Shown: positions 10,989 to 31,199 of the stretch, in pieces
Position numbering within the stretch: position 1 is the stretch's first letter
Layout: every line of letters starts with the position of its first letter
Origin: an uncultured Frankiaceae bacterium
GTDB taxonomy: Bacteria > Actinomycetota > Actinomycetes > BP-191
Direction of reading: 5' to 3'
Assembly: GCA_964651395.1 (NCBI GenBank)
Contig: CAZYXZ010000001.1
Span: 15,274-79,273 of the forward strand
Length of the DNA: 64,000 nucleotides
Made by a program: the position numbers and the translations under genes
Notes under the pieces: model-generated
The model's input: the letters and a program-made list of their open reading frames with translations, nothing else
Database searches by the model: none
Told to the model about the DNA's origin: nothing

Positions 10989-14304
<3,316 letters not shown>

Positions 14305-14316
14305 CCGGAGGACGTC

Positions 14317-15336
14317 GTGCACACTGCCGAGAACCGCCGAGCGGCTGTGACCCCCATGCCGCGGAACGACGCGTCCACACATGACAAGCTCGCCTGGGCG
14401 CTGAACTACGCGATCCTGGCGCCGTCCAAGCACAACACCCAGCCGTGGTACTTCGAGGTCACGCGTGACGCGGTCGACATCCACGCCGACGGGGCTCGCG
14501 CTCTCACCGTGAGCGACCCGTTCGGTCGGGAGATGCTCATCAGCTGCGGTGCAGCCCTGGCGAACCTGCGCCTCGGTATCCGGGCACAAGGCTACGAGCC
14601 GGACGTCCACGTCTTCCCGCAAGGGGCCCACTTCAGCCACCTCGCCCGAGTTCGGCTGGGCGTCGCCCGGCCGGTCACGCCCGAGGAGCAGCGTCTCGTC
14701 GACGCCATGCCGAAGCGGCACACGCAGCGCCTCCCGCTGGACGGTCGCGACCTGCCACCCCAGCTACTGGACAACCTGGCGGAGATCGCCCGGCAGGAGG
14801 GCGCGCACCTGACCTTCGTCACGACACGGGGCGCCGAGCGACGGCTGGCCGAGCTGGTCACCGTCGCCGACCGTGCCGAGCACTGGGACGGCGCACGCCG
14901 CCTCGAGCTGAATGACTGGGTGCGCGGCCCCAACGACCGTTCTCCTGACGGCATCCCTGCGGACAGCCGCGGGCTCGGTGCCGCCGGCGCGAAGCAGACC
15001 TATCCGACTCGTGACTTCGACCTCGAGGGCACGATCGAACCCTGCGCGAACCCGGCCACGGACGTACCCACGGCCGCTCTCCTGTGGACCAGGCGCGACG
15101 AGCCGGCCGAGTGGCTGGTGGCCGGTCAGGCCCTGGAACTGGTGCTCCTGCGCGCGAGCGCCGACGACGTGCACGCCTCCTTCCTGAATCAGCCGCTGGA
15201 GATCAGACAGCTCCGCGCGAGGCTCGCCGTGGAGCTCGCCGTTCGCGGCTTCCCGCAGATGCTCCTTCGGTTGGGCAAGGGTGCGGCGGCGCCGGCCACG
15301 CCGCGTCGTCCGCTCGACGAGGTGACCGTCGGCTGA
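14317..15336 (+). CDS. Nitroreductase-family protein (Acg-like)
   Basis: 339 aa; 'LAPSKHNTQPWYF' is a nitroreductase-fold signature. Acg-like length, downstream of the DevR-like regulator. GTG start preceded by GGAGGA. Confidence 0.7.
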   Translation: MHTAENRRAAVTPMPRNDASTHDKLAWALNYAILAPSKHNTQPWYFEVTRDAVDIHADGARALTVSDPFGREMLISCGAALANLRLGIRAQGYEPDVHVFPQGAHFSHLARVRLGVARPVTPEEQRLVDAMPKRHTQRLPLDGRDLPPQLLDNLAEIARQEGAHLTFVTTRGAERRLAELVTVADRAEHWDGARRLELNDWVRGPNDRSPDGIPADSRGLGAAGAKQTYPTRDFDLEGTIEPCANPATDVPTAALLWTRRDEPAEWLVAGQALELVLLRASADDVHASFLNQPLEIRQLRARLAVELAVRGFPQMLLRLGKGAAAPATPRRPLDEVTVG

Positions 15337-16217: not shown

Positions 16218-16792
16218 CCCAGGAGCAGCGCACACGTTCCGCGCCGCGGTTCAGACCCGGGCGAGTTCTGGCCCGGGTTCTGACCGTGGGGTGGACCGTG
16301 GCCGTTGTCGTTGCCCTCGCCGTGATCGGACTCACCTGGTTCGCCGGATGGCGGCTTCTTTCGGTCGAGTCCGACAGCATGTCGCCCACGGTGCCCCGCT
16401 TCGCCTTGGCAGTCACCTCCCCAGTGGCACCTCGCCGTATCGAGGTCGGGGACGTGATCCGATTCCGGGACCCGGGAGATCGCCGCACCACGGTGCTCCA
16501 CCGGGTGGAGCAGGTCCTGGTCACTGCTGACGGTGGACGATCCTTCGCGACACGCGGCGATGCCAATCGATCCGTCGATCCCGCCTTCGTCTCCGATACG
16601 GCCGTTCTGGGACGCATGCGATTCAGCACGCCGCATCTCGGTCGCGTGGTGACGGCCGTGGCGACGCCGGCCGCTGCGTACGTGCTGGGCGGGCTGCCCC
16701 TTCTCTTGCTCGGCGTCCGTGAAGTCGTCCTTCGTCGACGGCGCTCGCGCGCTTCGCAGCGGGAAGCCGTCCTCGAGACGGCCGGAGTCTAG
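16214..16792 (+). CDS. sipW: Signal peptidase I, SipW/archaeal-ER type (S26B)
   Basis: TM helix, then 'SVESDSMSPT' (SxSMxPT catalytic-Ser box). No E. coli-type LepB boxes, as in SipW. Confidence 0.7.
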   Translation: MTQEQRTRSAPRFRPGRVLARVLTVGWTVAVVVALAVIGLTWFAGWRLLSVESDSMSPTVPRFALAVTSPVAPRRIEVGDVIRFRDPGDRRTTVLHRVEQVLVTADGGRSFATRGDANRSVDPAFVSDTAVLGRMRFSTPHLGRVVTAVATPAAAYVLGGLPLLLLGVREVVLRRRRSRASQREAVLETAGV

Positions 16793-17070
16793 GAACGCAC
16801 CAGGCGCGCGATCGCGGCCGACGCCTCGGCGAGCTTCGCGTCGGCGTCCGGACCGCCGGAGTCGACCGCAGCGCGCACGCAGTGCGCCATGTGCTCGTCG
16901 AGCAGCTGCAGCGACACCGAGCGCAGCGCACTGGTCACTGCGGAGACCTGCGTGAGGACGTCGATGCAGTACCGGTCGTCCTCGACCATCGCGGCGAGGC
17001 CGCGCACCTGGCCTTCAATGCGGCGCAGCCGACGCAGGTGTGCCGCCTTGTTCTCCGCGTAACCGGGCAC
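16789..17070 (-). CDS. csoR: CsoR/RcnR-family copper-sensing transcriptional repressor
   Basis: 93 aa 'RLRRIEGQVRGLAAMVEDDRYCIDVLTQVSAVTSALRSVSLQLLDEHMAHCV' with conserved Cys/His. Divergent from copZ-copA. Confidence 0.8.
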   Translation of the reverse strand: MPGYAENKAAHLRRLRRIEGQVRGLAAMVEDDRYCIDVLTQVSAVTSALRSVSLQLLDEHMAHCVRAAVDSGGPDADAKLAEASAAIARLVRS

Positions 17071-17093
17071 GGGCCCTCCTCAGGTTGCTGCCA

Positions 17094-17114
17094 CCATACC
17101 CTAGGGGGGTATAG
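17094..17114. promoter_or_regulatory. CsoR-operator-like GC-rich pseudo-palindrome in the csoR-copZ divergent region
   Basis: ATACCC-TAGGG-GGGTAT (6-bp perfect arms) between csoR and copZ. Resembles described CsoR boxes (TACCC..GGGTA). Confidence 0.5.
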
Positions 17115-17121
17115 TGAGCAC

Positions 17122-17328
17122 ATGACCGACGTAACCCTCTCCGTGCCGGAGATCCACTGCGGGCACTGCAAGTCCTCGATCGAGGGGGCGGTTCGCCCGT
17201 TGGACGGCGTGGCCTCCGCCGAGGTCGATGTCGAGACCCGTTCCGTGCGCGTCGTCTTCGACGCCCCGGCGACGCTCGCGCAGATCCATGCAGTCATCGA
17301 GGACCAGGGCTATGCCATCGGCGGTTGA
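17122..17328 (+). CDS. copZ: Copper chaperone, heavy-metal-associated (HMA) domain
   Basis: 68 aa '[24 protein letters not shown]' with a GxCxxC HMA motif. Confidence 0.85.
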
Positions 17329-19465
17329 CGCCGACTTCACCGTCACGGGCATGACCTGCGGGTCGTGCGCCGCACGGGTCGAGCGCGTCCTGAGCCGCCA
17401 GCCCGGCGTCGAGTCCGCGGCGGTCAACTTCGCCACGGGCCGCGCGTCGGTGCGCAAGGACGCCGACCTCAGCGACGACCAGCTGGTGACCGCCGTCGGC
17501 AAGATCGGCTACGGCCTGGCGCCCACCCGGCCGCACGAAGCCGCGGTCGCCGACGGTGACGCGGTGGTGGCGTCGATGTGGCGGCGACGCCTCGTCGTCG
17601 CGGGCCCGCTGGGGGCCGCCGTGATGCTGCTGTCCATGCTCGCCATGCACGTGACCTGGGCGCGATGGACGGCGTTCGTCTTGACGACGCCGGTGCAGTT
17701 CTGGGCCGCGTGGCCTTTTCTCGACCAGGCGTGGCTGCGCGCGCGAGCCCGGCAGGCGAGCATGGACACGCTGATCACGGTGGGGACGTTGTCGGCGTAC
17801 CTGTTCTCCACCTGGCAGCTGCTCTTCGCCGACGACCACGCAGATCTCTACTTCGAGTCCTCAGCGCTCGTGATCGCCTTCCTGCTGCTCGGCCGCTCCC
17901 TGGAGGCTGGGGCGCGTGGGCGCGCCTCGGGCGCGGTCCGTTCCCTGTTGGAGCTGGGTGCCAAGAATGCGCGTCGCGTCCTCGACGGCACAGAGACCCT
18001 CGTGCCGCTCGAGCAGGTCCGGCTCGGCGACCTGCTTCGCGTGCGACCTGGGGAGAAGGTGCCTGTCGACGGCGACGTCGTCGACGGGTCGGCCACCGTC
18101 GACGAGTCGATGTTGACGGGGGAGTCCGTCCCCGTCCTCAAGCGCGCCGGTGACCGGGTCGTGGGAGCCTCGGTGAACACCGACGGCGTGCTGACCGTAC
18201 GGGCGAGCGCCGTGGGTGCCGACACGGCGCTGGCCCGGATCGTGCGTATGGTCGAAGACGCGCAGGGCAGCAAGGCGCCGGTACAGCGTCTCGCCGATCG
18301 GATCAGCGGTGTCTTCGTCCCCGTCGTCCTCGGCATCGCGCTGCTCACGCTGCTCGGGTGGACGACGGTGTCCCGTCCGGGTGACGGCCTCATCGCCGCC
18401 GTCGCGGTGCTGATCATCGCCTGCCCGTGCGCGCTGGGCCTGGCCACACCCACCGCGATCATGGTGGGCACCGGGCGGGGAGCCGCACTCGGCATCCTGT
18501 TCAAGGGCGGCCAGGTGCTCGAGCAGTCGCACGAGGTCGACACGGTCGTGTTCGACAAGACCGGCACACTCACGTACGGCCGGATGGCCCTCACCGAGGT
18601 CGCGACGGTCGACGTGGACCGGCGTGAACTGCTGCTCCTGGCTGCGGCGGCAGAAGCGGGCTCGGAGCATCCGGTCGGCCGGGCGATCGTCGACGCGACC
18701 CAGGCTGAGTTCGGCGAGCTGCCCGCGGCTGAGGAGTTCCGAGCAGTGCCCGGGCGTGGTGTCGTCGCGCGTGTCGAGGGCGTGGACGTCCGAGTCGGCA
18801 GCAGAGGACTGCTGGCGGAGGCCGGTGCCGGTTGCGACGCTGCTCTCGACGCGGTGGCCGAGGGCTACGAGGCGAGCGGTCAAACCGTCGTGTACGTCGC
18901 CTGGGCCGGCGCCGTGAGGGGCGTGCTAGCCGTCGCGGACACCGTTCGCGAGGACGCGGCCGCGGCCGTGCGCGAGCTGCGGGACATGGGTCTCGGCGTC
19001 CGGATGATCACGGGCGACAATGCGCGCACCGCGGCGGCGATCGGCCAGGCGGTGGGCATCGACCAGATTCGGGCCGGGGTGCTGCCGGGGGGGAAGGTCG
19101 ACGAGATCCGCCGGCTGCAGGACTCCGGGCGTGTGGTTGCCATGGTCGGTGACGGGATCAACGACGCGCCCGCCCTCGCCCAGGCCGAGCTCGGCATCGC
19201 GATCGGCACGGGCACCGATGTGGCGATCCAGTCCGCGGACATCGCGCTGCTCTCCGGGTCGCTCAACGCGGCGCCGACGGCGTTGCGGCTGGCCCGGCGT
19301 ACGTTCCGCACGATCCGGCAGAACCTCGGCTGGGCCTTCGCCTACAACGTGGCCCTGATCCCCGCGGCGGCGCTCGGGTTGCTCGACCCGGTTCTCGCCG
19401 GTGCCGCCATGGCGTTGTCCAGCGTGTCCGTCGTGCTCAACAGCTTGCGACTCGCCCGGGCCTAG
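17312..19465 (+). CDS. copA: Copper-translocating P1B-type ATPase
   Basis: N-terminal '[15 protein letters not shown]' HMA domain, 'CPC' membrane motif, 'DKTGTLT' phosphorylation site, 'GDGINDAP'. Overlaps the copZ 3' end. Confidence 0.9.
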
Positions 19466-19475: not shown

Positions 19476-20399
19476 ATGGCGGAGCCGGTGACCAGACAGC
19501 AGCTCGATGCGGCCCTGGGCGGGCTCGTCGGCGACGGTGTGCTGCGCGCAGACCAGGCGGAGGCGGTGCGCGCGCGGCTCGCCGGGACGGGTCCAGCAGC
19601 GGATTCCGTGGGTCGCGGCACGATCGCGGCGGCGTACGTCGGAGTGGGTCTGATCGCGGCGGCGGTGGCGACCGTCCTCGTGCAGAGCTGGGACGACCTG
19701 CGGGTCGCCGAAAGGAGTGCGGTCTTCGCCGCGCTGACCGTCGCCCTCGTCCTGGCCGGCGTCTGGCTCGAACGGGTGCGAACGGCGCGAGCCATGAGCT
19801 GGCTGATCGCCGTCGTGACGTCGGCTGGGCTGGCTGCGGCGGTCACATCCGGCCACGGTGTGGGCGACGACACGCGCTGGATGGTCGGGTCGGTGACGAT
19901 GCTCGCGGTCGCCGTCCCACTGCTCGTGGCGAGTCGTACCGCGGCCCAGGTGGTCGGCTTCTTCCTCGCGATCACGGTGGCGACGGTCGCGGCCGTCGAG
20001 CTGTTGGACCTCGGACCGGTAGGTGCCGGCGCGGTCACGTGGACGGCCGGCGTCGCCCTGGCCGCAGCGGCCGGCGCGGGCTGGGTCCCTGCACCGCCGC
20101 TCGCGCAGCCGCTGGGCGGCGGGATGGCGCTCGTGGGCGTGCATCTGGCCTTCGGCGACGCGCCGGTCCTTGGCGGGCTGCTCGCCGTGCTGCTCGCCCT
20201 CGCCGGCTACGCCGCCGCCGTGCGGGACGACGCGGCGATGCCCCTCACCGTCGCAACAGCCACCGTGGCCGTGACCGGACCCCGGCTCCTGGGGAGGTGG
20301 CTCGACGACAGCCTTGGGGCAGCGGGGGTCCTCGCCGTCAGCGGGGTCGTCGTCCTCGCCGCGGCCGCCCTCCACCTTCGCGTGGTCCGTCGGCGCTAG
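19476..20399 (+). CDS. Polytopic integral membrane protein, hypothetical
   Basis: 307 aa from 'MAEPVTRQQLDAALGG...'. Multiple Ala/Val/Leu-rich TM segments. Confidence 0.45.
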   Translation: MAEPVTRQQLDAALGGLVGDGVLRADQAEAVRARLAGTGPAADSVGRGTIAAAYVGVGLIAAAVATVLVQSWDDLRVAERSAVFAALTVALVLAGVWLERVRTARAMSWLIAVVTSAGLAAAVTSGHGVGDDTRWMVGSVTMLAVAVPLLVASRTAAQVVGFFLAITVATVAAVELLDLGPVGAGAVTWTAGVALAAAAGAGWVPAPPLAQPLGGGMALVGVHLAFGDAPVLGGLLAVLLALAGYAAAVRDDAAMPLTVATATVAVTGPRLLGRWLDDSLGAAGVLAVSGVVVLAAAALHLRVVRRR

Positions 20400-21355
20400 C
20401 GGATGCGCGCGCGCACGCAGCCTTGGTCCGGGCGCTGCTGCGCCGCCCACTCGATGCCGCCGAGCAGGTGCTGCCGGTAGTCGGCCCGATCCCACGTGCG
20501 CATCGCGTGTCCGAGGTTCGTGTAGAAGACCCGGCCCCGGCCGTAGCTCTTCGTCCAGGCGAGCGGGCTGTGGTGCGGATACGCGAGCGGCGGGAACAGC
20601 TGGACCGGGTTCGGGATCTCCTCGGGCACCGGGATGATCACCGTGGGGCCGGCCGGGCGGATGTCGCGCGGCCAGTAGTGCGTCTGCTCGTCGAGGGACA
20701 GCAGGACCTTGACGCGCTCGCGCGGGTCGGTCTTCCACCGGTAGAGCTCGTCCATCGTCCGGAAGTAGGGCACGCCGTGCCAGGGGGTGGTCGCGATGTG
20801 CTTCTGGTCCTCGACGATCACCGAGACCTCGGAGATCGCCTTCGAGGCGAGCAGGTCGCTGTCGACCGGGTTGCTGTTCTCCTCGAAGTCGAAGTGCGGG
20901 TGCATCTCGAACGAGGCGCCGATGAGCTTCTCGTACTCGGGCCAGTCGCCGAAGTCGGCGGCCGCGTGTACGCCGACGTACGCCCCGCCGCAGCCGAAGA
21001 AGGTGAGGAAGTCGGTCTTCTGCTTGTCGGTCAACGGGCCGCCGCCCGTCCCGGTGGTCTGCAGCATGATGACGCCGTCCACACGACGGTAGGTCGCGGG
21101 GGAGAGCACCGCGGCGTCCTCCGACCACTCGAGCGTGAAGGAGCCGGTGATCCGCGACAGGTAGCGCAGGACTCCGACGGCCTCCTGGATCCCGTCGTGG
21201 CGGAAGCCGTAGGTGGCGCTGAACACGAGGTAGTGCGGCACGCGCCGCTGCGGAGCCGCCGCAAGTGCCGGAAGGCCGCCGATGCCCACGGTGATGGCGA
21301 GTACGAGGGGGACGACCACGCGGCGGCTGAGGAGCCGGCGAAGCTGAACGCGCAC
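20396..21355 (-). CDS. ThuA-like (class I glutamine amidotransferase-like) secreted protein
   Basis: Signal peptide, then 'PHYLVFSATYGFRHDGI...', 'HAMRTWDRADYRQHLLGGIEWA'. Typical ThuA family. Confidence 0.65.
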   Translation of the reverse strand: MRVQLRRLLSRRVVVPLVLAITVGIGGLPALAAAPQRRVPHYLVFSATYGFRHDGIQEAVGVLRYLSRITGSFTLEWSEDAAVLSPATYRRVDGVIMLQTTGTGGGPLTDKQKTDFLTFFGCGGAYVGVHAAADFGDWPEYEKLIGASFEMHPHFDFEENSNPVDSDLLASKAISEVSVIVEDQKHIATTPWHGVPYFRTMDELYRWKTDPRERVKVLLSLDEQTHYWPRDIRPAGPTVIIPVPEEIPNPVQLFPPLAYPHHSPLAWTKSYGRGRVFYTNLGHAMRTWDRADYRQHLLGGIEWAAQQRPDQGCVRARIR

Positions 21356-21381
21356 GACGGGAACTCCGTTCGTAAGCTGGG

Positions 21382-23172
21382 CTACGGGACGATCAGTGAG
21401 CCGGTCATGCTCGCGTGCAGCGAGCAGAAGAACTCGTACGTGCCGGTCGGCAGCTGCACGACGCCCTCGATCGGGGCGCCCTTGCCGAGACTGATCAGCT
21501 TCGAGCGGAACAGCGGGCGGCCATCAGGGCGGCGGGCGCGGGAGATCACGTCATGCGGCGCGATGTCGGCGTTGACGAACTGCGCGGCCAAGCCCAGCGG
21601 GACCACGACCGTGGGGGTGAGGTAGCCGGCGTTCGTCGCGCCGGGCCCGGCGACGACTCGCACCTGCGCCCCGAGCGGCGGGAGCTCGGGCACGCCCAGC
21701 GGAGGACCGGGCGTGCCGCCCCCGCCCAGGCGGTAGGCGACGATCGTGCCGCTGTGGTTGGCGATGACGGTGTTGCCGGCCACCGTCACGCTCGACGCGA
21801 TGCTGCCGAAGCTGTCCTCGTTCGGCGAGGACGGCGACTCCCAGAGGACGGCGCCCGTGTCGGGGTGGTAGGCGCGCACGGCGGTGTCGCCGGTCCAGTA
21901 CACGACGCCGTTGGCCAGCGCGGCGTTGCCACCGGTCGGCGCGCCGGCGCCGGTGTGCCACTTCTCCGTCCCGGTCGCGGCGTCGAAGGCGAAGAGCCGG
22001 CCAGGGGTCGTGGGGACCCAGAGGGTCTTGCCGTCGGTCGCCGCCCGGCCGATGTTCCCGCTCAGGAACGACAGCGAGCTGAAGGTCTGCTCCGACCACA
22101 CCGGCGCCATCGTCGTCGCGTCGAAGGCGTGGAAGAAACCCGACTTCTGCGTGGCTGCGCCGAACAGGCGCCCGCGCGCGTCCCGCCACAGCGTCGGGCC
22201 GTTGCCGAAGTCGACGTCGAGCTGGCCGCACAGCGGGGAGGACCCGTAGTTGTCCTGGGGGTACCAGACCGTCCCGCCCAGGCTCTGGCAGACCGGGTTG
22301 TCGTAGCCCGTGGCGCTGTCCGGGGTGCCCTTGTACGCCGCGACCACGCGGCCGAAGGTCTTGTGCGACCGGTTCAGGTCGATCTTGAGGATCGCGTTGT
22401 CGTACTCATGCTCCTTGGTCTTCGACTCCGGGTTGGACGTCCCGGCGTACAGGTAGCCGGTCTTCGGGTCGACCGTCGGCGTGCCCCACACGCCGCCGCC
22501 GTTGTAGCCCTCGGCGAGCTCCGCCGCGGTCAGCGTCGTGGTCTTGAACAGCACCTTGCCGGTCTTGGCGTCGATGATCCCGTAGCCCTGCCGCGCCGAC
22601 GGCTGGAAGTCCGGGCCGGTGGTGAACAGCACCTGCAGCCCGTTGTAGACGACGGCGCTGGCCAGCTGGTTCGTGTCCTGGCCGAACCAGATCTCCCCGC
22701 TGAGCCAGAGCAGCTTGCCGTTGCGTACGTCGAACGCCGCCGCCCTGGGCCGGCCGTTGCCGGTCAGTCCCACGTGCACGCGGCCGTCCTCAACCGCGAC
22801 CGCGAACGTGCCGGTCGTGTCGGCGCCTTTCGACTCCCAGACGACGCGGCCGTCGTCGAGGTCGTAGGCGACGATCCGGCCACCAGTGTTGATGAACACG
22901 CACCCGCCGGACACGATCGCGGGCGCCGACTGGTATCCGGTCTGCGGAATCGTCCAGACCTCGGCAAGGGCCACGACGTTCTCGCGGTTGATGGTCGTCT
23001 CGGCGTCCTGGCGCTGCTGGCCCATCAGGTCCTGGCCGTAGCGCGCCCAGTCGCCGCCGGGTCGGCGCTCCGTGCAGGGTGCCGTTGCGGCGTGCGAGGG
23101 CACCGCCAGGCTCACACCGGCCAGAACGGCCGCGGCCACGGCGCTGCGCAGCACGCGCGGCTTCGCTCCCAT
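21382..23172 (-). CDS. Secreted PQQ-type beta-propeller repeat protein fused to a C-terminal cupredoxin (type-1 copper) domain
   Basis: Signal peptide 'MGAKPRVLRSAVAAAVLAGVSLAVPSHA'. Repeated 'G.V.a.dadTG..lW' blades. C-terminus 'GTYEFFCSLHASMTGSLIV' matches the Cys-x2-His-x2-Met blue-copper ligand set. Confidence 0.65.
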   Translation of the reverse strand: MGAKPRVLRSAVAAAVLAGVSLAVPSHAATAPCTERRPGGDWARYGQDLMGQQRQDAETTINRENVVALAEVWTIPQTGYQSAPAIVSGGCVFINTGGRIVAYDLDDGRVVWESKGADTTGTFAVAVEDGRVHVGLTGNGRPRAAAFDVRNGKLLWLSGEIWFGQDTNQLASAVVYNGLQVLFTTGPDFQPSARQGYGIIDAKTGKVLFKTTTLTAAELAEGYNGGGVWGTPTVDPKTGYLYAGTSNPESKTKEHEYDNAILKIDLNRSHKTFGRVVAAYKGTPDSATGYDNPVCQSLGGTVWYPQDNYGSSPLCGQLDVDFGNGPTLWRDARGRLFGAATQKSGFFHAFDATTMAPVWSEQTFSSLSFLSGNIGRAATDGKTLWVPTTPGRLFAFDAATGTEKWHTGAGAPTGGNAALANGVVYWTGDTAVRAYHPDTGAVLWESPSSPNEDSFGSIASSVTVAGNTVIANHSGTIVAYRLGGGGTPGPPLGVPELPPLGAQVRVVAGPGATNAGYLTPTVVVPLGLAAQFVNADIAPHDVISRARRPDGRPLFRSKLISLGKGAPIEGVVQLPTGTYEFFCSLHASMTGSLIVP

Positions 23173-23303
23173 GGCCACCTCCGTTCGACACCGGTACGGC
23201 GATCCCCGCAAGGGACGGGCGAGTTCTCCGGCGAAACCATAGGCGGGCCGCGACGTTGTCCTTCGGAACGGGCTCGTGTCGCCGAGATGAGGAGCTGGCC
23301 GCT

Positions 23304-25478
23304 GTGAGGCGCTGGACGTTGATCGTTTCGTTGGTGATCGGGACGGTGGCGGCGCCGACCGTCGCGAGCAGTGCCAGCGGACCGGTCGTCGCCGTGCTGT
23401 CGAACCGCCGGGCCGACCTTGTCTCCGACGGGCAGGCGCTCGTCGGGATCGCCGTCCCGGGCCTGTCCGGGCTTCGGGTCACGGTCGGGGGCCGTGACGT
23501 GACCCGGGCGTTCCGTCCGCGCCCCTCCGGCCGGGTCGAGGGCATCGTCGACGGACTCCGTGTCGGCCCGAACGTGCTGACCGCCACCCTCGGCGGCCGG
23601 TCGACCAGGCTGACGATCACCAACCACCCGAACGGCGGGCCGATCTTCGGGGGCCCGCAGATCCAGCCGTGGCGGTGCCCGGAGGGGTCGCGCGACAAGC
23701 AGTGCAACCGGGCGCCCGAGTTCACGTACCTCTACAAGTCGATCGATCCGAGCAAGGTCGGCCTTCAGGACTACGACCCGGAGGCTCCACCCTCGGATGT
23801 GGCGATGACGACGACGCAGACCGGCATGACGGTGCCGTTCGTCGTCCGGCAGGAGCTCGGCTACCAGGCGCGCGACCAGTACAAGATCCTCGTGCTGATC
23901 GACCCGGATGAGCCGTGGAGTCGCTGGGCGCCGCAGCCGACGTTCAACAACAAGCTGCTGGTCACCGGGGGAGGCGGCTGCGGCGGCTCGTACGGCGCGG
24001 GGTCCGCACCACTCGAGGACTTCAGCGGCACGTTCGAGGGCACACCCGGCCGGGTCGACAGCTATGTCGACGCGTTGGGACTGGGCTTCGCTGTGATGTC
24101 GACGGCGCTCGCGAACACCGGCCACAACTGCAACGTCGCGACCGAGGCCGAAGCGCTGATCATGCTCAAGGAGCGGGTCATCGAGAACTACGGCGACGTC
24201 CGCTACACGATCGGCACGGGCTGCTCGGGCGGCTCGATCGTGCAGCACACCGTCGCCAACGCGTACCCGGGGGCCGTCTACGACGGGCTGATCGTCACGT
24301 GTGCCTACCCGGACACCCTGACTGCCGGTGCGCAGTTCGCGGACTACCACCTCCTCCGCAAGTACTTCGAAGACCCGTCGCGATGGGGGACCGGCGTCGT
24401 CTGGACACCGATGCAGTGGGCGCTGGTCGAGGGCCACGTCAGCCACGTCAACGCCGTCGTCGCGGACGAGGGGCTGTTCAAGGCCGCCGTGCAGCCGGTC
24501 GGCGACTGCGTTCCCGCGGACCAGGCCTACCACCCGACGAGCAACCCGCGTGGCGTGCGCTGCTCGGTGCTCGACTTCATGAAGACGCTGTTCGGCCCGC
24601 GGCCGCCGCGAGTCTGGTCGCCACAGGAGAAGAAGGCCGGCCGCGGCTTCGCGGGGGTGCCGTGGAGCAACGCCGGCATCGAGTTCGGCTTGGAGACGTT
24701 GCGCGCCGGGCTGATCACGCCGGACATGTTCGTCGACCTCAACGAGAAGATCGGGGGGCTCGACGTCGACGCCCAGCCGTCAGCCGGGCGCATGGCCGGT
24801 GACGACACGGCCGTCGCCAATGCGTACCGGACCGGCATGGTGAACCTGGGTGACAACCTCGACCAGGTCGCGATCATCGACCACGCCGGGCCCGACCCGG
24901 GTGCGGCGCACGACTACGCGCACACCTGGTGGATGCGCGACCGCCTGGACAAGGCGCACGGACATCACGACAACCAGGTGCTCTGGATCGGCACGACGGC
25001 GTTGATCGGCGACATCACGTGGCCGACCGAGGCGCTGCTGTCCATGGACCGATGGCTCGCGGCGGTCGAGAAGGACCGCTCGCGACTTCCGCGGGCCCGC
25101 AAGATCGTCGTGAACCGGCCCGCCGACGTGCACGACCGTTGTGCGTACGCACCGGCGGTGCACGTGCAGACACCCCTCGACGGGGTCTGCCTGCCCGACG
25201 TGGTGATGACCCGCTACGGCACACCCCGTGAGGTCGCCGGGGGGCCGCGCACGAACGAGGTCCTGAAGTGCCGGCTGACGCCGCTCACCGCCGCCGGGCA
25301 CGGGCCGCTCGGGCTGAGCGAGGCGCAGCTCGCACGCCTGCGCAAGGTCTTCCCGGACGGGGTCTGCGACTGGGAGAGGCCCGGCGTCGGGCAGCGCAGC
25401 GTGGTCGGCTGGCAGACCTACCAGGACGCGCGCGGCCGGGTCGTCTACGGCGGCCGGCCGATGAGCCGGTTGCCCTAA
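23304..25478 (+). CDS. Large secreted protein, possible tannase/feruloyl-esterase-like alpha/beta hydrolase
   Basis: GTG start. Signal peptide 'VRRWTLIVSLVIGTVAAPTVASSASG'. 'GTGCSGGS' resembles the G-C-S-x-G-G nucleophile motif of the tannase family. Many Cys. Confidence 0.45.
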   Translation: MRRWTLIVSLVIGTVAAPTVASSASGPVVAVLSNRRADLVSDGQALVGIAVPGLSGLRVTVGGRDVTRAFRPRPSGRVEGIVDGLRVGPNVLTATLGGRSTRLTITNHPNGGPIFGGPQIQPWRCPEGSRDKQCNRAPEFTYLYKSIDPSKVGLQDYDPEAPPSDVAMTTTQTGMTVPFVVRQELGYQARDQYKILVLIDPDEPWSRWAPQPTFNNKLLVTGGGGCGGSYGAGSAPLEDFSGTFEGTPGRVDSYVDALGLGFAVMSTALANTGHNCNVATEAEALIMLKERVIENYGDVRYTIGTGCSGGSIVQHTVANAYPGAVYDGLIVTCAYPDTLTAGAQFADYHLLRKYFEDPSRWGTGVVWTPMQWALVEGHVSHVNAVVADEGLFKAAVQPVGDCVPADQAYHPTSNPRGVRCSVLDFMKTLFGPRPPRVWSPQEKKAGRGFAGVPWSNAGIEFGLETLRAGLITPDMFVDLNEKIGGLDVDAQPSAGRMAGDDTAVANAYRTGMVNLGDNLDQVAIIDHAGPDPGAAHDYAHTWWMRDRLDKAHGHHDNQVLWIGTTALIGDITWPTEALLSMDRWLAAVEKDRSRLPRARKIVVNRPADVHDRCAYAPAVHVQTPLDGVCLPDVVMTRYGTPREVAGGPRTNEVLKCRLTPLTAAGHGPLGLSEAQLARLRKVFPDGVCDWERPGVGQRSVVGWQTYQDARGRVVYGGRPMSRLP

Positions 25479-25509: not shown

Positions 25510-27606
<2,097 letters not shown>

Positions 27607-27852
27607 GTCGGCTCCTCGGGCTTCGGATGCCGACACACTGCTATCGCCGCGGTGAGGTCACCATGGCCCGTCGTAATGAACTGCACATAGCCCGACGTGC
27701 GGTACATCGTGGGACTTTCGTCCCACGTCCACAGGTATCTCGGCCCAGGGGGAATTCCCCTCAATTCGCTATGGCTGTCGGTGCCGCCAGCACGCAGCCT
27801 GGGCGATCTCGACGACACCCGGACGGTGGCCCATGCCTGAACGTGCGCGACA

Positions 27853-29841
27853 GTGAACGACCCGGAGTTCTGGCTGCCCACGCAGCGGCAGTCCCCGTCC
27901 CTTCGGCTGCGCCTCGGCGAGATCCTGCTGAAGGCCGGGCTGCTCACGTCGGACCAGCTGGAGGACTGCCTTGCGGTCCAGGCGCAGATGCCGCCGACTG
28001 CACCACGGCGCCGGCTCGGGGACATCGCGGTGAGCCGGGGCTACGTCTCCGAGGTGCAGATCGCACTGGCGATCGCCGGACGGCTGGACATTCCGGTCGT
28101 CGATCTCACGACGATGGTCGTCCCACGCGAGCTGCTGGTCCGCATCCCGCGCTCGGTGGCGGTGCGCTGCGGCGCCGTGGCCTATGCAGAGGCCGGCGAT
28201 CGACTGTGGGTCGCCATGGTGGATCCGACGAACGTCGTCATGGTCGACGACGTCCGCCTCTACACCGGAGTGCGCACGGTGGAGGTGGCGGTCGCACCCG
28301 CGGCCCAGATCGATGCCCTCCTCAACCGCGCGTGGGTGCTCGGTGAGGACGCGACCGCCGCGGTGAGCGCCCTCGAGGACAACCAGCCGTCGCCTGATGG
28401 CGAGGACCTGGCCACGGCGGTGGTCAGGGCCGAAGAGGCGCCGATCGTCCGGCTCGCGAACGTGATCCTCAGCAACGCTGCGCGCGCGCGAGCGAGCGAC
28501 ATCCACCTCGAGCCGCAAGCCGGGGACCTGCGGGTCCGCTACCGGGTCGACGGGCTGCTGCGCGAGGTGATGACCGTTCCGGCCAACGCCAGCTCGGCGC
28601 TGATCAGTCGGATCAAGATCATGTCCGCGTTGGACATCGCGGAGCGCCGGCGGCCGCAGGACGGCCGGGCCCGCTTCGAGGTGAACGAGCGATCGGTCGA
28701 CGCCCGGGTGTCGACCCTGCCCTCGATGCATGGCGAGAAGCTGGTCCTCCGGCTGCTGGAGACCGAGCAGGACGTGCAGCCGTTGGAGCGCAGCGGCATG
28801 TCGGCCCGCCAGCTCGAGATCGTCCGGGGCCAGCTCGTCGCGCCGCAGGGGCTGGTGCTGATCACCGGGCCCACCGGCTCGGGCAAGACATCGACCCTCT
28901 ACTCGGCCATCGACGAGGTGCGCTCGCCGGACCGCAACATCGTCACCCTGGAAGACCCGGTGGAGATCCAGCTGCCGGGGATCACGCAGATGCAGGTCAA
29001 CGAGCGGGCCGGCGTGACGTTCGCACGTGGCCTGCGCGCGATCCTGCGACAGGATCCGGATGTCATCCTGGTCGGCGAGATCCGTGACGCGGAAACGGCG
29101 GAGCTCGCCATGCAGGCCGCGCTGACCGGCCACCTCGTCCTCGCCACACTGCACACGAACGACGCGCCGAGTGCCCTCACCCGGCTGGTCGACATCGGCG
29201 TCGACGCGGCGCTTATCGCGTCATCGCTCGCTCTCGTGGTGGCGCAGCGTCTGGTGCGCGTCCCCTGCACCCAGTGCGCGACGGCGTACGAGCCCAGTCG
29301 TCGCGCGCTCGAGCACTTCGGCATCGCGAGCGAGGCACGTGAGGCGGCCAGGTTCCTCCGCGGGGCCGGGTGCGGTGAGTGCGGCGACACCGGCTACCTC
29401 GGGCGCACGGGTGTCTTCGAGGTGCTGCCGGTCACCTCCCAGCTGCGGGCGGTTCTCCTCGAGACACCCAGCGAGGGGCCGGTCCGGCAGGCCGCACGAG
29501 CGGCAGGCGTCCCCTCCTTGCGTTCCGAGGCGCTCGACCGAGCTCTCCGCGGCGCGACCACTCTCGACGAGGTGTCCCGGGCCACGCAGCCGGATTCCAC
29601 GGAGGCGCGCGCCTGCCGCGCGTGTGCCCGGCCTCTCGCCGACGACATGCTGGCCTGCCCGTGGTGCACCGCGGACGCCGACCACGATCGGTGCGGTCAT
29701 TGCGGCCGCCGCATGGGCCTGGACTGGAGGATGTGTCCGTGGTGCCGGACGTCGGCCACGCGGGCTGACTCCGTCGTCGCGGGTCTGCCCTCGGTGCTGC
29801 ATGCCGCCCCTCACCCGTCGGCCGGTTTGGCCGCGAGCTGA
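27853..29841 (+). CDS. GspE/PilB-family secretion-type ATPase with N-terminal MshEN-like c-di-GMP-binding domain and C-terminal double zinc ribbon
   Basis: The N-terminus 'RLGEILLKAGLLTSDQLEDCLAVQ' fits the 24-residue MshEN motif, with a second degenerate copy 'RLGDIAVSRGYVSEVQIALAIAGR'. Walker A 'GPTGSGKTS' and the standard tetracysteine Zn site are present. An extra C-terminal 'CRACARP...CPWC...CGHCGRR...CPWC' follows. Confidence 0.8.
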   Translation: MNDPEFWLPTQRQSPSLRLRLGEILLKAGLLTSDQLEDCLAVQAQMPPTAPRRRLGDIAVSRGYVSEVQIALAIAGRLDIPVVDLTTMVVPRELLVRIPRSVAVRCGAVAYAEAGDRLWVAMVDPTNVVMVDDVRLYTGVRTVEVAVAPAAQIDALLNRAWVLGEDATAAVSALEDNQPSPDGEDLATAVVRAEEAPIVRLANVILSNAARARASDIHLEPQAGDLRVRYRVDGLLREVMTVPANASSALISRIKIMSALDIAERRRPQDGRARFEVNERSVDARVSTLPSMHGEKLVLRLLETEQDVQPLERSGMSARQLEIVRGQLVAPQGLVLITGPTGSGKTSTLYSAIDEVRSPDRNIVTLEDPVEIQLPGITQMQVNERAGVTFARGLRAILRQDPDVILVGEIRDAETAELAMQAALTGHLVLATLHTNDAPSALTRLVDIGVDAALIASSLALVVAQRLVRVPCTQCATAYEPSRRALEHFGIASEAREAARFLRGAGCGECGDTGYLGRTGVFEVLPVTSQLRAVLLETPSEGPVRQAARAAGVPSLRSEALDRALRGATTLDEVSRATQPDSTEARACRACARPLADDMLACPWCTADADHDRCGHCGRRMGLDWRMCPWCRTSATRADSVVAGLPSVLHAAPHPSAGLAAS

Positions 29842-31199
29842 TGAGCCTCATGCCCCGGGTACATGCGGTGCTCGACTGGTTGCCGAACGGCTCAGCGCTG
29901 CCCGCCCGCGAGTGGGAGGCGCGCCACCGGATCGTGACCGCAGCGCTGTTCGCGCAGCTGCCGCTCGTCTTCGGCTACGGGTTGATCACCGGGCACTCGA
30001 TCGGCCACTCGTTCGTCGAGATGCTCGCACCGGGTGCCATGGCGCTCGTCGCGTGGCGCGCGCGAGGACGAACCTCGCGCGCATCCGCCGGCGTGCTCGG
30101 GCTCATGCTGACCTCGGCCACCTTCGTGCACCTGTCCAGCGGGCTGATCGAGTGGCACTTCCACTTCTTCGTCATGCTGGCGCTGGTCTCGCTGTACCAG
30201 GAGTGGCAGATCTACCTGATCGCCCTGGGTTTCGTCGTGGCCGAACACATCCTCGGCGGGCTGCTCGCCTTCCACGCCGTCTACAACCACGGTGCGGGGG
30301 AGTGGTGGTGGGGAGTCGTGCACGGCGCGTTCGTCCTCGCGGCAAGCGCCTTCCACGTGACGTCGTGGCGGTTCCAGGAGGCAGCGACCGCACGGGCGGT
30401 CGCGCTCCAGGCCCAGCTCACGGACGGGGAGCGTTCGCTCCTGGCACGCACCGATCGGATCGCGGCAACCCGCAGCGACCTCATCGCCGTCGCGTCGCAC
30501 GAGTTCCGGACGCCCATCACCGCGATCAAGGCCGCCGCCTCCGTGCTCGAGCAGTACGGCGACCGGCTCAGTCCTGCCGAGGTGGCCGAGCTCGTCAGCG
30601 GCATCACCGGCCGGACCGAGTCGCTCGCCATGACCTTGGACAACATGCTGCTCGCCGCCAGGCTCGAGCCTTCGGCGCCGGACTCGCGGGCGGCCGTCGA
30701 CTCCGTCATGCGCGACGCCGTCGTTGAGCTGAGTGACCGCGTCCCCGGCCTCACCGTCGTCGCCGAGATCGCGAGCGACGTCACCGTGCGGTGCGAGCGC
30801 GAGCCCCTGCACCTCATGCTGACCAGGCTGATCGAGGGCCTCATGCCGCACGGCGCCGGCGAGGCGGAAGTCGCGATCTCCGTGAGATCAACGACTGAGC
30901 TGGCCTGCATCGAGGCGTCGGTGCGCGCGGCGGCGCTCGACGCGCATACCGCCGGGGAGCTGCTCGAGGCGTTCACCCCGACCAGCGAAGGGCATCAAGC
31001 GGTCGACTCGGGCCTGCGCCTGTTCGCCGCGCGCGGGATCGCGGAGCTGCACGGGGGGTCGATGACCGCCGCACTGCGCGGGACCGACCTGGTCATCTGC
31101 GCCACGCTGCCGCTCGCTGCGACACCGTCGGACGTCGGGGCGCTCATCCCGGTCACCAGGGCCGAGGTCTCCCCACCCCTGTCGGCCGCGACCGGCTGA
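29841..31199 (+). CDS. Membrane-embedded sensor histidine kinase
   Basis: Start overlaps the GspE stop (TGATG). About 5 TM helices rich in His/Trp, then 'IAVASHEFRTPITAI' H-box and a C-terminal ATPase-like domain. Confidence 0.65.
   Translation: MSLMPRVHAVLDWLPNGSALPAREWEARHRIVTAALFAQLPLVFGYGLITGHSIGHSFVEMLAPGAMALVAWRARGRTSRASAGVLGLMLTSATFVHLSSGLIEWHFHFFVMLALVSLYQEWQIYLIALGFVVAEHILGGLLAFHAVYNHGAGEWWWGVVHGAFVLAASAFHVTSWRFQEAATARAVALQAQLTDGERSLLARTDRIAATRSDLIAVASHEFRTPITAIKAAASVLEQYGDRLSPAEVAELVSGITGRTESLAMTLDNMLLAARLEPSAPDSRAAVDSVMRDAVVELSDRVPGLTVVAEIASDVTVRCEREPLHLMLTRLIEGLMPHGAGEAEVAISVRSTTELACIEASVRAAALDAHTAGELLEAFTPTSEGHQAVDSGLRLFAARGIAELHGGSMTAALRGTDLVICATLPLAATPSDVGALIPVTRAEVSPPLSAATG

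What the first reader, a model, noticed from the sequence alone, without database searches (positions are those of the whole stretch)
21382..23172. PQQ-type beta-propeller fused to a C-terminal cupredoxin (type-1 copper) domain
A secreted 596-aa protein has about 8 PQQ/BamB-like blades ('G.VyA.DadTG..lW') followed by a cupredoxin-like domain of about 90 aa whose terminus 'GTYEFFCSLHASMTGSLIV' matches the Cys-x2-His-x2-Met ligand set of blue copper proteins. An upstream His completing the T1 site was not located by eye. A propeller-cupredoxin fusion is uncommon and suggests a built-in electron-transfer partner for a propeller-type dehydrogenase or receptor. The window has a wider copper theme: laccase, csoR-copZA, and a NirK with an extra cupredoxin.
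Basis: partly seen in the sequence, partly recalled or inferred. Interest (0 to 1): 0.5.

Follow-up and report, generated by a model that had tools for sequence, protein, structure and literature searches.

The report
Propeller dehydrogenase with fused blue-copper domain
A secreted actinobacterial protein joins an eight-bladed, quinoprotein-dehydrogenase-like propeller to a complete blue-copper (type-1) domain and is genetically paired with a ThuA-like protein, so it is most likely a self-wired extracellular dehydrogenase that uses copper where known relatives use a cytochrome; the class is unstudied but not one of a kind.

Summary
Minus-strand ORF 21382-23172 encodes a 596-aa protein with a signal peptide, an 8-bladed PQQ-dehydrogenase-like propeller, a Gly/Pro linker and a ~87-aa cupredoxin. 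These ligands are kept in 31 of 32 homologous fusions, and the domain models as a cupredoxin.

The propeller falls far below every curated PQQ-enzyme cutoff and lacks the vicinal Cys-Cys. Its most conserved residues nevertheless sit where PQQ alcohol dehydrogenases hold their metal and PQQ ligands.

A ThuA-like secreted protein lies 26 nt downstream, and relatives are fused to ThuA in both orders. Every relative with enough flanking DNA has either a ThuA-like or a DUF1080 (3-keto-glycoside lyase/hydratase family) gene adjacent or, in one locus, about 5 kb away.

The closest stand-alone cupredoxins are translationally coupled to 6-bladed AA12/GSDH-type propellers.

Best reading: an extracytoplasmic polyol or glycoside dehydrogenase with a built-in copper electron acceptor, analogous to quinohemoprotein alcohol dehydrogenases. 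Cofactor, substrate and final acceptor are inferred only. The neighbouring csoR-copZA genes show no regulatory link.

Verdict: a new variant of a known kind, of moderate interest.

The parts
21382..23172 (-). Complete CDS of 596 aa plus stop: signal peptide, 8-bladed quinoprotein-like propeller, linker, cupredoxin.
   Evidence: Translation; GGAGG RBS 6 nt upstream of the ATG; Pfam; AF2 model with pLDDT 89.5.
23089..23172 (-). Predicted Sec signal peptide, residues 1-28 (MGAKPRVLRSAVAAAVLAGVSLAVPSHA|A). It is not a lipobox, because Cys33 is preceded by Pro.
   Evidence: Read from the sequence and from the N-termini of homologues. Low-pLDDT helix 7-19 in the model. Inferred; no predictor was run.
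21721..23076 (-). Eight-bladed beta-propeller, residues 33-484, homologous to the PQQ alcohol dehydrogenase superfamily. Four near-invariant Cys (33, 91, 295, 315) probably form two disulfides.
22210..22218 (-). Invariant D319-V-D321 in the loop just before strand A of blade 5, the position of the catalytic Asp of PQQ alcohol dehydrogenases. It may be a DxD lanthanide-type motif; the register is ambiguous by 2 residues.
   Evidence: D319 in 69/69 and D321 in 68/69 sequences. Blade register from the model. hhalign places D321 on the catalytic Asp of 1kb0. DxD motif definition: preprint 10.64898/2026.07.10.737718.
21646..21720 (-). Gly/Pro-rich flexible linker, residues 485-509.
   Evidence: pLDDT of 42 for residues 491-500; sequence GGGGTPGPPLGVPELPPLG.
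21385..21645 (-). Cupredoxin (type-1 copper) domain, residues 510-596. Ligands and their codons: H540 (21553-21555), C583 (21424-21426), H586 (21415-21417), M589 (21406-21408). The loop spacing C-x2-H-x2-M matches amicyanin.
   Evidence: Alignment with amicyanin; codons; AF2 pLDDT 94.6; Foldseek returns only cupredoxins; ligands invariant in homologues.
20396..21355 (-). ThuA-like partner gene of 319 aa with its own signal peptide. It lies 26 nt downstream on the same strand, has a GGAG RBS, and is probably in the same operon.
   Evidence: PF06283 at 1.2e-42; sequence. Rosetta-stone fusions P0002, P0005, P0028 and P0039. Adjacency in L004, L005, L006, L008 and L012/13.
23173..23303 (.). 131-bp divergent intergenic region that should hold the promoters of the propeller-ThuA operon and of the DUF6351 gene. 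It contains no CsoR box and no sigma-70 consensus.
23304..25478 (+). Divergent neighbour: a secreted tannase-like alpha/beta-hydrolase of family DUF6351. Its start is revised to the GTG at 23304, with a GAGGAG RBS. It recurs 3.5 kb from the ThuA-propeller-cupredoxin triple fusion in L016.
   Evidence: PF19878 at 1.6e-206; L016; 51% identity; start codon read.

Best explanation
The gene encodes a secreted, self-wired dehydrogenase.

The 8-bladed propeller is a divergent member of the quinoprotein (PQQ) alcohol/sugar dehydrogenase superfamily. It is proposed to hold a redox cofactor, most likely PQQ with a Ca2+ or lanthanide ion, in the top-face pocket. That pocket is formed by D188, W229, N247, D319/D321, Q342-K343 and H348. 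There it oxidises a hydroxyl group of an extracellular polyol or glycoside to a ketone.

The two electrons would then leave one at a time to the type-1 copper site (H540, C583, H586, M589) of the C-terminal cupredoxin, which is tethered by a ~25-residue flexible linker. The cupredoxin plays the role that the C-terminal cytochrome c domain plays in type II quinohemoprotein alcohol dehydrogenases, and that amicyanin or azurin play for other periplasmic dehydrogenases. Reduced copper would pass the electron to an unidentified envelope acceptor.

The co-operonic ThuA-like protein is an obligatory partner, acting either as a subunit or as the enzyme that handles the keto product. In sister lineages a DUF1080 protein (3-keto-glycoside lyase/hydratase family) takes its place.

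Shown here: the domain identities, the ligand set and its conservation, the fold, the partner linkage and the fusions.

Inferred: cofactor identity, catalysis, substrate class, direction of electron flow and the final acceptor.
For: 1. The cupredoxin is complete. It aligns with amicyanin at E=5.6e-7 with His/Cys/His/Met in register. The model has pLDDT 94.6 and matches only cupredoxins in the top 50 PDB hits. The ligands are invariant in 31/32 fusions down to ~31% propeller identity.

3. The most conserved polar residues of 69 diverse members fall on top-face loops, at the positions of the PQQ-ADH metal and PQQ ligands. Position 188 is D39/E22 and corresponds to the metal-binding Glu of 'GGAEYGVRG'. 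W229 (68/69) corresponds to the stacking Trp, and N247 (64/69) to the Asn of 'GTGN'. D319 (69/69) and D321 (68/69) correspond to the catalytic Asp region. K343 (68/69) corresponds to the Lys of 'PKNGFF'.

4. Partner linkage. ThuA lies 26 nt downstream. Fusions exist as ThuA-propeller-cupredoxin, ThuA-propeller and propeller-ThuA. All 11 distinct related loci with enough flank have a ThuA-like or a PF06439/DUF1080-containing gene adjacent or, in L011, about 5 kb away. Some overlap by 4 nt.

5. DUF1080 proteins are 3-keto-glucoside lyases/hydratases (10.1101/2024.03.25.586180). They act with periplasmic glycoside 3-dehydrogenases (PMC9007349).

6. The nearest stand-alone cupredoxins (36-38% identity) overlap by 4 nt with AA12/GSDH-type 6-bladed propeller genes. 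This cupredoxin clade therefore recurrently serves quinoprotein-like propellers.
Against: - The protein is far below every curated PQQ-enzyme threshold (TIGR03075 59.8 vs 480; TIGR03074 31 vs 833).
- The vicinal Cys-Cys ring and the adjacent 'NRG' Arg of PQQ-ADHs are absent, and that segment is variable.
- The alignment of the second half of the active site rests on blade topology and weak scores (3.3 bits; E=0.064). HMMER prefers out-of-register blade matches.
- No pqq biosynthesis gene lies in the 64-kb window, and the rest of the genome could not be examined.
- Most family members lack a cupredoxin and have none within 8 kb, so the copper domain is dispensable for the core function.
- The biochemical role of ThuA is unknown.
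Confidence: 0.55

Rival explanations
1. The propeller is a non-catalytic scaffold, like BamB, YxaL or Rv3035. It docks ThuA/DUF1080-type partners or other envelope proteins. The cupredoxin then acts on its own, as an electron shuttle or as a copper-binding or copper-buffering module tied to the adjacent csoR-copZA copper-stress genes.
Against: - There is no CsoR operator upstream; the only box is at 17096-17112.
- The copA unit is convergent with this operon, not co-transcribed.
- None of the homologous loci carries copA or csoR.
- The invariant residues are top-face acidic, Asn and Lys residues at the positions of the dehydrogenase ligands, not a binding surface typical of BamB.
- ThuA and DUF1080 have no known redox cofactor, so a tethered one-electron carrier would have no electron source unless the propeller is the redox enzyme.
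- There is no lipobox.
Confidence: 0.15
2. Same architecture, different chemistry. This would be a polyvinyl-alcohol-dehydrogenase-like secondary-alcohol or 1,3-diol dehydrogenase. It would work with the divergent DUF6351 alpha/beta-hydrolase, as PVADH works with oxidised-PVA hydrolase, on a non-sugar polymer or an aromatic ester. ThuA would be an accessory.
For: JGI labels many family members 'polyvinyl alcohol dehydrogenase (cytochrome)'. DUF6351 (tannase-like) is the divergent neighbour here and lies 3.5 kb from the triple fusion in L016, at 51% identity. Distant family members are fused to acetoacetate-decarboxylase-like domains, which suggests beta-keto chemistry (P0215, P0218).
Against: DUF6351 is seen in only 2 of about 13 loci, whereas a ThuA or DUF1080 partner is present at every locus with enough flank. 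The JGI label is an automatic KO transfer. The protein has no haem motif (no CxxCH) and fails the PQQ-ADH cutoff. The pvaA/pvaB analogy comes from my own knowledge and was not tested here.
Confidence: 0.15
3. A cofactor-less hydrolase or lyase propeller, like tetrathionate hydrolase, or a propeller with a different cofactor that is metal-only or protein-derived. The cupredoxin would serve an unrelated step.
Against: A covalently tethered one-electron carrier, conserved across the family, argues for redox catalysis. The TIGR04528 score is 44.5 against a cutoff of 650, so the protein is not a member. The conserved acidic/Asn set mirrors a metal site next to a planar cofactor stacked on W229.
Confidence: 0.1

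Closest known systems
Type II quinohemoprotein alcohol dehydrogenases (PDB 1kv9, 1kb0, 1yiq)
   Same: Both have an 8-bladed PQQ-type propeller followed by a linker and a C-terminal one-electron carrier domain on the same chain. These enzymes are the best Foldseek and profile matches. The acidic, Asn, Asp and Lys positions of the active site are conserved by register.
   Different: The carrier here is a type-1 copper cupredoxin rather than cytochrome c, and there is no CxxCH motif. The vicinal Cys-Cys and the NRG Arg are absent. The score is far below the TIGR03075 cutoff. The host is an actinobacterium rather than a proteobacterium. The protein has an obligatory ThuA/DUF1080 partner.
Amicyanin (partner of methylamine dehydrogenase) and other small cupredoxins
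   Same: Greek-key fold; His...Cys-x2-His-x2-Met with the same short loop spacing as amicyanin's CTPHPFM; best sequence match in the PDB. Both have the role of accepting electrons from a periplasmic quinoprotein.
   Different: The domain is covalently fused rather than free. It is not a member of the amicyanin equivalog (TIGR02657 13.7 vs 110). The donor would be a PQQ-like propeller, not a TTQ enzyme.
Actinobacterial cupredoxin + AA12/GSDH-type six-bladed propeller operons (L020, L021), and fungal AA12 pyranose dehydrogenase with an appended cytochrome b
   Same: The same cupredoxin clade (36-38% identity) is translationally coupled to a quinoprotein-like sugar dehydrogenase. The logic of a propeller dehydrogenase plus a dedicated carrier is shared.
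   Different: The genes are separate, and the propeller is six-bladed and unrelated in sequence to the 8-bladed family. The fungal comparison comes from my own knowledge.
ThuA/ThuB trehalose-to-3-ketotrehalose system, and LacABC glycoside 3-dehydrogenase + DUF1080
   Same: A ThuA-family or DUF1080-family protein is genetically coupled to an envelope or periplasmic sugar dehydrogenase.
   Different: The dehydrogenase here is neither a Gfo/Idh/MocA (ThuB) nor an FAD GMC (LacA) enzyme; it is a propeller. All components are secreted by a monoderm. The ThuAB chemistry is cited from my own knowledge; its papers were not in the searchable library.
BamB / YxaL / Rv3035 non-catalytic PQQ-like propellers
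   Different: Those proteins are ~330-400 aa without the long top-face loops. They have no fused redox domain. BamB is an outer-membrane lipoprotein, whereas here there is no lipobox and the conserved residues are ligand-like.

Membership tests
Cupredoxin / type-1 blue copper protein (plastocyanin-azurin family, PF00127) | Greek-key beta-sandwich fold | tested here: met
   The AF2 model of residues 492-596 has pLDDT 94.6. All top 50 Foldseek PDB hits are cupredoxins: TM 0.74/0.81 to 5fc9 and about 0.70 to amicyanins.
Cupredoxin / type-1 blue copper protein (plastocyanin-azurin family, PF00127) | His (N-terminal half) plus a Cys-Xn-His-Xn-Met loop at the C-terminus, in register with known ligands | tested here: met
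   H540, C583, H586 and M589 align with the amicyanin ligands. They are invariant in alignments A3 and A5, and 31/32 fusions keep them.
Cupredoxin / type-1 blue copper protein (plastocyanin-azurin family, PF00127) | Score above the Pfam gathering threshold | tested here: not met
   Copper-bind 16.4 vs 21.2 and Cupredoxin_1 19 vs 27 for this protein. Homologous domains do pass, for example P0157 at 34 bits. This is a sensitivity issue, not a contradiction.
Cupredoxin / type-1 blue copper protein (plastocyanin-azurin family, PF00127) | Binds Cu with a ~600 nm LMCT band and small A-parallel EPR | not testable with these tools
   Needs expressed protein.
PQQ-dependent alcohol/sugar dehydrogenase, 8-bladed (TIGR03075 / PF01011) | Eight-bladed propeller with PQQ-type repeats and the N-terminal W..YG motif | tested here: met
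PQQ-dependent alcohol/sugar dehydrogenase, 8-bladed (TIGR03075 / PF01011) | Score above the curated family cutoff | tested here: not met
   TIGR03075 59.8 vs 480; TIGR03074 31.1 vs 833.
PQQ-dependent alcohol/sugar dehydrogenase, 8-bladed (TIGR03075 / PF01011) | Vicinal Cys-Cys disulfide ring above PQQ (alcohol dehydrogenase types) | tested here: not met
   The in-register alignment puts 'GADTTGTF' opposite 'CCDVVNRG'. Columns 116-123 are variable and contain no Cys.
PQQ-dependent alcohol/sugar dehydrogenase, 8-bladed (TIGR03075 / PF01011) | Metal ligands Glu/Asn/Asp, the catalytic Asp, and Lys/Arg at the PQQ carbonyls | tested here: inconclusive
   D/E188, W229 and N247 are aligned by HMMER in register and are conserved. 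D319/D321 and K343 are assigned by blade topology with only weak alignment support.
PQQ-dependent alcohol/sugar dehydrogenase, 8-bladed (TIGR03075 / PF01011) | PQQ available (pqqA-E in the genome) and bound | not testable with these tools
   No pqq gene lies in the window.
Lanthanide-dependent PQQ dehydrogenases (XoxF/ExaF/PedH type) | Second Asp two residues after the catalytic Asp (DxD) | tested here: inconclusive
   D319-V-D321 is invariant. However, hhalign puts D321, not D319, on the catalytic Asp, while topology allows either. Motif definition from 10.64898/2026.07.10.737718.
Type II quinohemoprotein ADH / PVA dehydrogenase (cytochrome) (the JGI label) | Covalent haem c domain (CxxCH) | tested here: not met
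   There is no CxxCH; the only Cys residues are at 33, 91, 295, 315 and 583.
BamB | Lipoprotein (lipobox Cys) of a diderm BAM complex; ~370-aa propeller | tested here: not met
   Cys33 is preceded by Pro in this protein and in many homologues. TIGR03300 55.8 vs 285. Relatives are Actinomycetota MAGs.
ThuA family (PF06283), for the partner gene 20396-21355 | Score above the Pfam gathering threshold over the full domain | tested here: met
   147 bits vs 33.4, covering profile positions 3-209 of 209. The only PDB relative is the ThuA-like protein 4e5v.

The most novel reading that the evidence does not exclude
Members of Actinomycetota, which mostly lack soluble c-type cytochromes, may have built a parallel family of extracellular quinoprotein-type dehydrogenases wired through type-1 copper instead of haem.

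This 8-bladed clade has no Cys-Cys ring and carries an invariant DxD that may specify a lanthanide. With its interchangeable ThuA or DUF1080 partner it would form a secreted oxidise-then-eliminate (3-keto-glycoside) system for breaking down glycosides outside the cell.

That reading would also give ThuA, whose biochemical role is not known to me, its first defined molecular context.
Probability: 0.25. Interest if true: 0.7.

Novelty: new variant of a known kind. Interest (0 to 1): 0.5.

Why it matters
Quinoprotein dehydrogenases are known to hand electrons to cytochrome c domains or to free cupredoxins. A covalent propeller-cupredoxin enzyme has not been described in the literature I could search.

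If it is active, it would be a compact single-chain module running from substrate through cofactor to copper, which is attractive for bioelectrocatalysis. It would also show how monoderm actinobacteria wire extracellular oxidations.

The tight and interchangeable linkage to ThuA-like or DUF1080 proteins, including fusions in both orders, offers a concrete handle on ThuA. To my knowledge ThuA's biochemical role is undefined; the primary ThuAB papers were not retrievable here. The linkage also extends the recently discovered 3-keto-glycoside route to soil Actinomycetota.

The possible DxD lanthanide signature would add to the growing list of candidate lanthanide enzymes outside methylotrophs.

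Tried and rejected
- Copper regulon link. I searched the window for the CsoR operator found between csoR and copZ (ATACCCTAGGGGGGTAT). There is no copy near the propeller operon, so this was rejected as evidence of co-regulation.
- Promoter and terminator consensus scan of 20200-23500: nothing found.
- Retrieving the source record. The 596-aa product and the ThuA product are 'not on record' in the contig index. However, ThuA, CsoR and GcvPB are in the protein collection from one 132,784-bp NCBI contig. The organism is still unnamed.
- The first genome-contig scan with alignment A1 failed for lack of a conserved stretch.
- A sub-profile of residues 280-400 against the PDB, and against fragments of 1kb0/1kv9, gave out-of-register blade matches and designed propellers. 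Only weak in-register support emerged. Global hhalign against a partial 1kb0 sequence padded with X was uninformative for blades 5-6.
- The cupredoxin domain as a single query found one protein.
- With the domain profile, the top 'stand-alone plastocyanins' turned out to be frameshift fragments of fused genes on long-read contigs. They were rejected as evidence for gene fission.
- The AlphaFold database (afdb50) fold library was unavailable.
- I tested whether the N-terminal half of the DUF1080-type partner is a hidden ThuA. There is no similarity.
- Literature searches for ThuA+cupredoxin, ThuA/ThuB/3-ketotrehalose, and PQQ+cupredoxin+fusion returned nothing on this architecture.
- Model coordinates are not exposed by the tools, so Cu-site and PQQ-pocket geometry could not be measured.
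Full report
OBSERVATION

The finding's coordinates delimit a genuine gene, but on the minus strand. The ATG is at 23170-23172, six bases after a GGAGG Shine-Dalgarno, and the stop is at 21382-21384, giving 596 codons. Third-position GC is 0.90 in a 70.6% GC window. The N-terminus (MGAKPRVLRSAVAAAVLAGVSLAVPSHA|ATAPC) reads as a Sec signal peptide. The conserved Cys33 is preceded by Pro, so it is not a lipobox. This is inferred by eye; no predictor was available.

Pfam finds PQQ_2 (2.2e-26) and PQQ (1.3e-12). The two cupredoxin models hit only below their gathering scores.

An AlphaFold2 model built on 69 homologues has mean pLDDT 89.5. It shows eight four-stranded blades (residues ~69-482), a disordered Gly/Pro linker (pLDDT 42 for residues 491-500) and a confident C-terminal beta domain.

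THE COPPER DOMAIN

Searched alone, the last 114 residues hit amicyanin (1id2, E=5.6e-7; 3c75), then plastocyanins and the Nitrosopumilus cupredoxin 5fc9. The alignment places 'IAPHDVI' on amicyanin's 'VMPHNVA' and 'FFCSLHASMTG' on 'YFCTPHPFMRG'.

The ligand set is H540, C583, H586 and M589 (codons), with amicyanin's short C-x2-H-x2-M loop.

A separate model of residues 492-596 has pLDDT 94.6. Its 50 best Foldseek matches in the PDB are all cupredoxins, with TM 0.74/0.81 to 5fc9 and about 0.70 to amicyanins.

Among 265 homologues fetched, 32 carry the domain. Of these, 31 keep His...C-x2-H-x2-M; P0131 has lost the Cys. The ligands are invariant columns in two independent alignments. Model coordinates are not returned by the tools, so the site geometry itself was not measured.

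THE PROPELLER

A single-sequence search of the PDB finds BamB first. The family profile instead ranks quinohemoprotein alcohol dehydrogenases on top (1kb0 at 2.6e-35, 1kv9 at 1.7e-34), with a long in-register alignment of residues 34-259.

Foldseek's first 28 hits are all PQQ dehydrogenases: type II QH-ADHs, MxaF, XoxF, PedH and sorbose dehydrogenase. Tetrathionate hydrolase and BamB follow.

The protein is not a member of any curated PQQ-enzyme family: TIGR03075 scores 59.8 against a cutoff of 480, and TIGR04528 'empty quinoprotein' 44.5 against 650. The in-register alignment puts 'GADTTGTF' opposite the hallmark 'CCDVVNRG', so the vicinal disulfide and the adjacent Arg are absent. These columns vary across the family.

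The best-conserved polar residues of 69 members (29-67% identity) nevertheless map to top-face loops at the positions of the dehydrogenase ligands:

- Position 188 is Asp in 39 and Glu in 22 sequences. It sits opposite the metal-binding Glu of 'GGAEYGVRG'.
- W229 (68/69) sits opposite the Trp that stacks on PQQ.
- N247 (64/69) sits opposite the Asn of 'GTGN'.
- D319 (69/69) and D321 (68/69) lie in the loop immediately before strand A of blade 5, where the catalytic Asp sits.
- Q342-K343 (68/69) sit opposite 'PKNGFF'.

The first three assignments come from a significant alignment. The last two rest on blade topology plus weak alignments (3.3 bits; hhalign E=0.064), because HMMER otherwise prefers out-of-register blade matches.

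The D-x-D pair resembles the lanthanide signature of XoxF-type enzymes (definition in preprint 10.64898/2026.07.10.737718). However, hhalign puts D321 rather than D319 on the catalytic Asp. The register is therefore uncertain by two residues, and lanthanide dependence is only a possibility.

A ThuA-family gene lies 26 nt downstream on the same strand (20396-21355; PF06283 1.2e-42). It has its own signal peptide and RBS.

The database holds fusions in both orders:

- ThuA-propeller-cupredoxin: P0002 (925 aa) and P0005 (946 aa).
- ThuA-propeller: P0028.
- Propeller-ThuA: P0039.

In related loci, ThuA follows the propeller gene (L004, L005, L006, L008) or precedes it with a 4-nt overlap (L012/13).

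All remaining loci with enough flank instead have a ~500-525-aa secreted protein whose C-terminal half is PF06439 (3keto-disac_hyd/DUF1080). It lies immediately upstream in L001, L002=L014, L003 and L009 (a 4-nt overlap in L014), downstream in L007=L015, and about 5 kb away in L011. Every one of the 11 distinct related loci with enough flanking DNA thus has one of the two partners adjacent or, in L011, about 5 kb away, whether or not the cupredoxin is present. L010, at 3 kb, is too short to tell.

DUF1080 proteins are 3-keto-glucoside 1,2-lyases/hydratases (10.1101/2024.03.25.586180). They function with periplasmic glycoside 3-dehydrogenases (PMC9007349). From my own knowledge, ThuA acts with ThuB in forming 3-ketotrehalose; the primary papers were not retrievable.

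A secreted tannase-like DUF6351 hydrolase is the divergent neighbour here. I revise its start to the GTG at 23304. It recurs 3.5 kb from the triple fusion in L016 at 51% identity.

THE CUPREDOXIN CLADE

A profile of the fused domains finds 632 proteins. The highest hits are short 'plastocyanins' on long-read contigs. These are frameshift fragments of fused genes, not free proteins.

The nearest genuine stand-alone proteins (133 aa, 36-38% identity) overlap by 4 nt with a 420-aa six-bladed AA12/GSDH-type propeller gene in two independent contigs. This cupredoxin lineage therefore recurrently serves quinoprotein-like propellers in Actinomycetota.

Cupredoxin-bearing members are scattered over the propeller-domain clustering in at least nine places. 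Cupredoxin-less members have no cupredoxin ORF within 8 kb. The domain is thus a modular, repeatedly lost or gained accessory.

COPPER THEME

The window does contain the following:

- a small multicopper oxidase, possibly of the two-domain SLAC type (13237-14304);
- csoR (16789-17079);
- a copZ-like ORF and copA (17123-19465);
- a NirK-like/multicopper protein with an extra cupredoxin (55113-56678).

However, the CsoR box ATACCCTAGGGGGGTAT occurs only at 17096-17112. The copA-DUF2157 unit is convergent with the ThuA end of this operon. Homologous loci carry no copper-homeostasis genes, although a multicopper oxidase lies 1.5 kb from P0001 in L011. I therefore treat the neighbourhood as at most a copper-supply convenience, not as a regulon.

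MECHANISM

Most likely (confidence 0.55) the protein is an extracytoplasmic dehydrogenase. The propeller would oxidise a hydroxyl group of a polyol or glycoside using PQQ plus a metal. It would pass single electrons to the tethered type-1 copper, as type II quinohemoprotein alcohol dehydrogenases do to their C-terminal haem. The ThuA-like (or DUF1080) partner would handle the keto product or act as a subunit.

The domain identities, ligand conservation, fold and genetic linkage are shown here. Cofactor, substrate, direction of electron flow and final acceptor are inferred.

Rivals:

- A PVA-dehydrogenase-like secondary-alcohol enzyme working with DUF6351 (0.15).
- A cofactor-less or differently cofactored propeller (0.1).

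NOVELTY AND SCORE

The architecture exists in public databases under generic names such as 'PQQ-binding-like beta-propeller repeat protein' and 'polyvinyl alcohol dehydrogenase (cytochrome)'. It spans at least 159 clusters at 50% identity. I found no paper describing a propeller-cupredoxin enzyme or the ThuA link.

It is a new variant of a known kind: a quinoprotein dehydrogenase with a built-in carrier, using copper instead of haem. It has an unexpected and consistent partner system. Interest is 0.5.

Noticed in passing
L001, L002/L014, L003, L009, L007/L015, L011 versus window, L004-L006, L008, L012/13, L016: The propeller family has two mutually exclusive partners. One is a ThuA-like protein. 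The other is a ~500-525-aa secreted protein with an unknown N-terminal half and a C-terminal DUF1080 (PF06439) domain. The two DUF1080-type partners compared are 41% identical to each other and show no similarity to ThuA.
   Followed up: yes
L020:6001-7670 and L021:5001-6661: Stand-alone 133-aa cupredoxins of the same clade overlap by 4 nt with a 420-aa six-bladed AA12/GSDH-type propeller (PF22807, PF07995; weak TIGR02604). This is a split-gene, six-bladed counterpart of the fusion.
   Followed up: partly
window 23304-25478 (+) and L016:13287-15809: A secreted tannase-like DUF6351 hydrolase lies next to the propeller operon in two independent loci (51% identity). The longest ORF (from 23079) overlaps the propeller gene. 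The likely true start is the GTG at 23304, with a GAGGAG RBS and a signal peptide.
   Followed up: partly
window 17096-17112: A perfect palindromic CsoR-type operator, ATACCCTAGGGGGGTAT, lies between csoR (16789-17079, minus) and a copZ-like HMA ORF starting at 17123, followed by copA (17228-19465). It is the only perfect copy in the window; the one other hit (8345-8361) needs two mismatches, which is at chance level.
   Followed up: yes
window 36608-42228 (-): A CBASS-like defence cluster: TIR-SAVED effector (36608-38029), ThiF/E1-like protein (37945-39381) and SMODS nucleotidyltransferase (41422-42228). An rve-family integrase (40080-41258) sits inside it. TniB and Mu-transposase-like genes follow at 44333-47532.
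   Followed up: no
window 27853-29841 (+): A type II/IV secretion ATPase (T2SSE plus MshEN) with a C-terminal double zinc ribbon. It is flanked by a hybrid histidine kinase (25510-27636, minus) and a HisKA protein (29841-31199), which is an unusual arrangement.
   Followed up: no
window 12523-15336 (+): A LuxR-type response regulator, a small (355-aa) multicopper oxidase, possibly of the two-domain SLAC type, and a nitroreductase-like protein lie head to tail with no gaps (12523-13236, 13237-14304, 14305-15336).
   Followed up: no
window 55113-56678 (+): A 521-aa protein with Cu-oxidase_3/_2 matches plus an extra N-terminal cupredoxin-like region. It lies ~32 kb from the finding, beyond mobile-element genes, and NirK identity was not verified.
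   Followed up: no
P0215, P0218, P0186 (distant homologues): Some family members are fused to acetoacetate-decarboxylase-like (PF06314) domains or to thrombospondin type 3 repeats. Others, of 900-1700 aa, carry large regions with no Pfam match.
   Followed up: no
L017, L018, L019 (ERZ25039xxx long-read contigs): Gene calls on these contigs are broken by frameshifts. This produces spurious short 'plastocyanin' proteins that top the homology list, which is a caution for domain-architecture counts.
   Followed up: yes
P0131 (634 aa): One fusion has lost the Cys ligand ('FHDSVFGKAKMHG'), so its cupredoxin domain is probably copper-free and degenerate.
   Followed up: no
L011:13284-18405: Near the closest homologue (P0001, 67% identity) lie a three-domain-size multicopper oxidase (574 aa), a second and shorter PQQ_2 propeller (369 aa), and the DUF1080-type protein. 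The oxidase is a possible electron sink for the cupredoxin.
   Followed up: no
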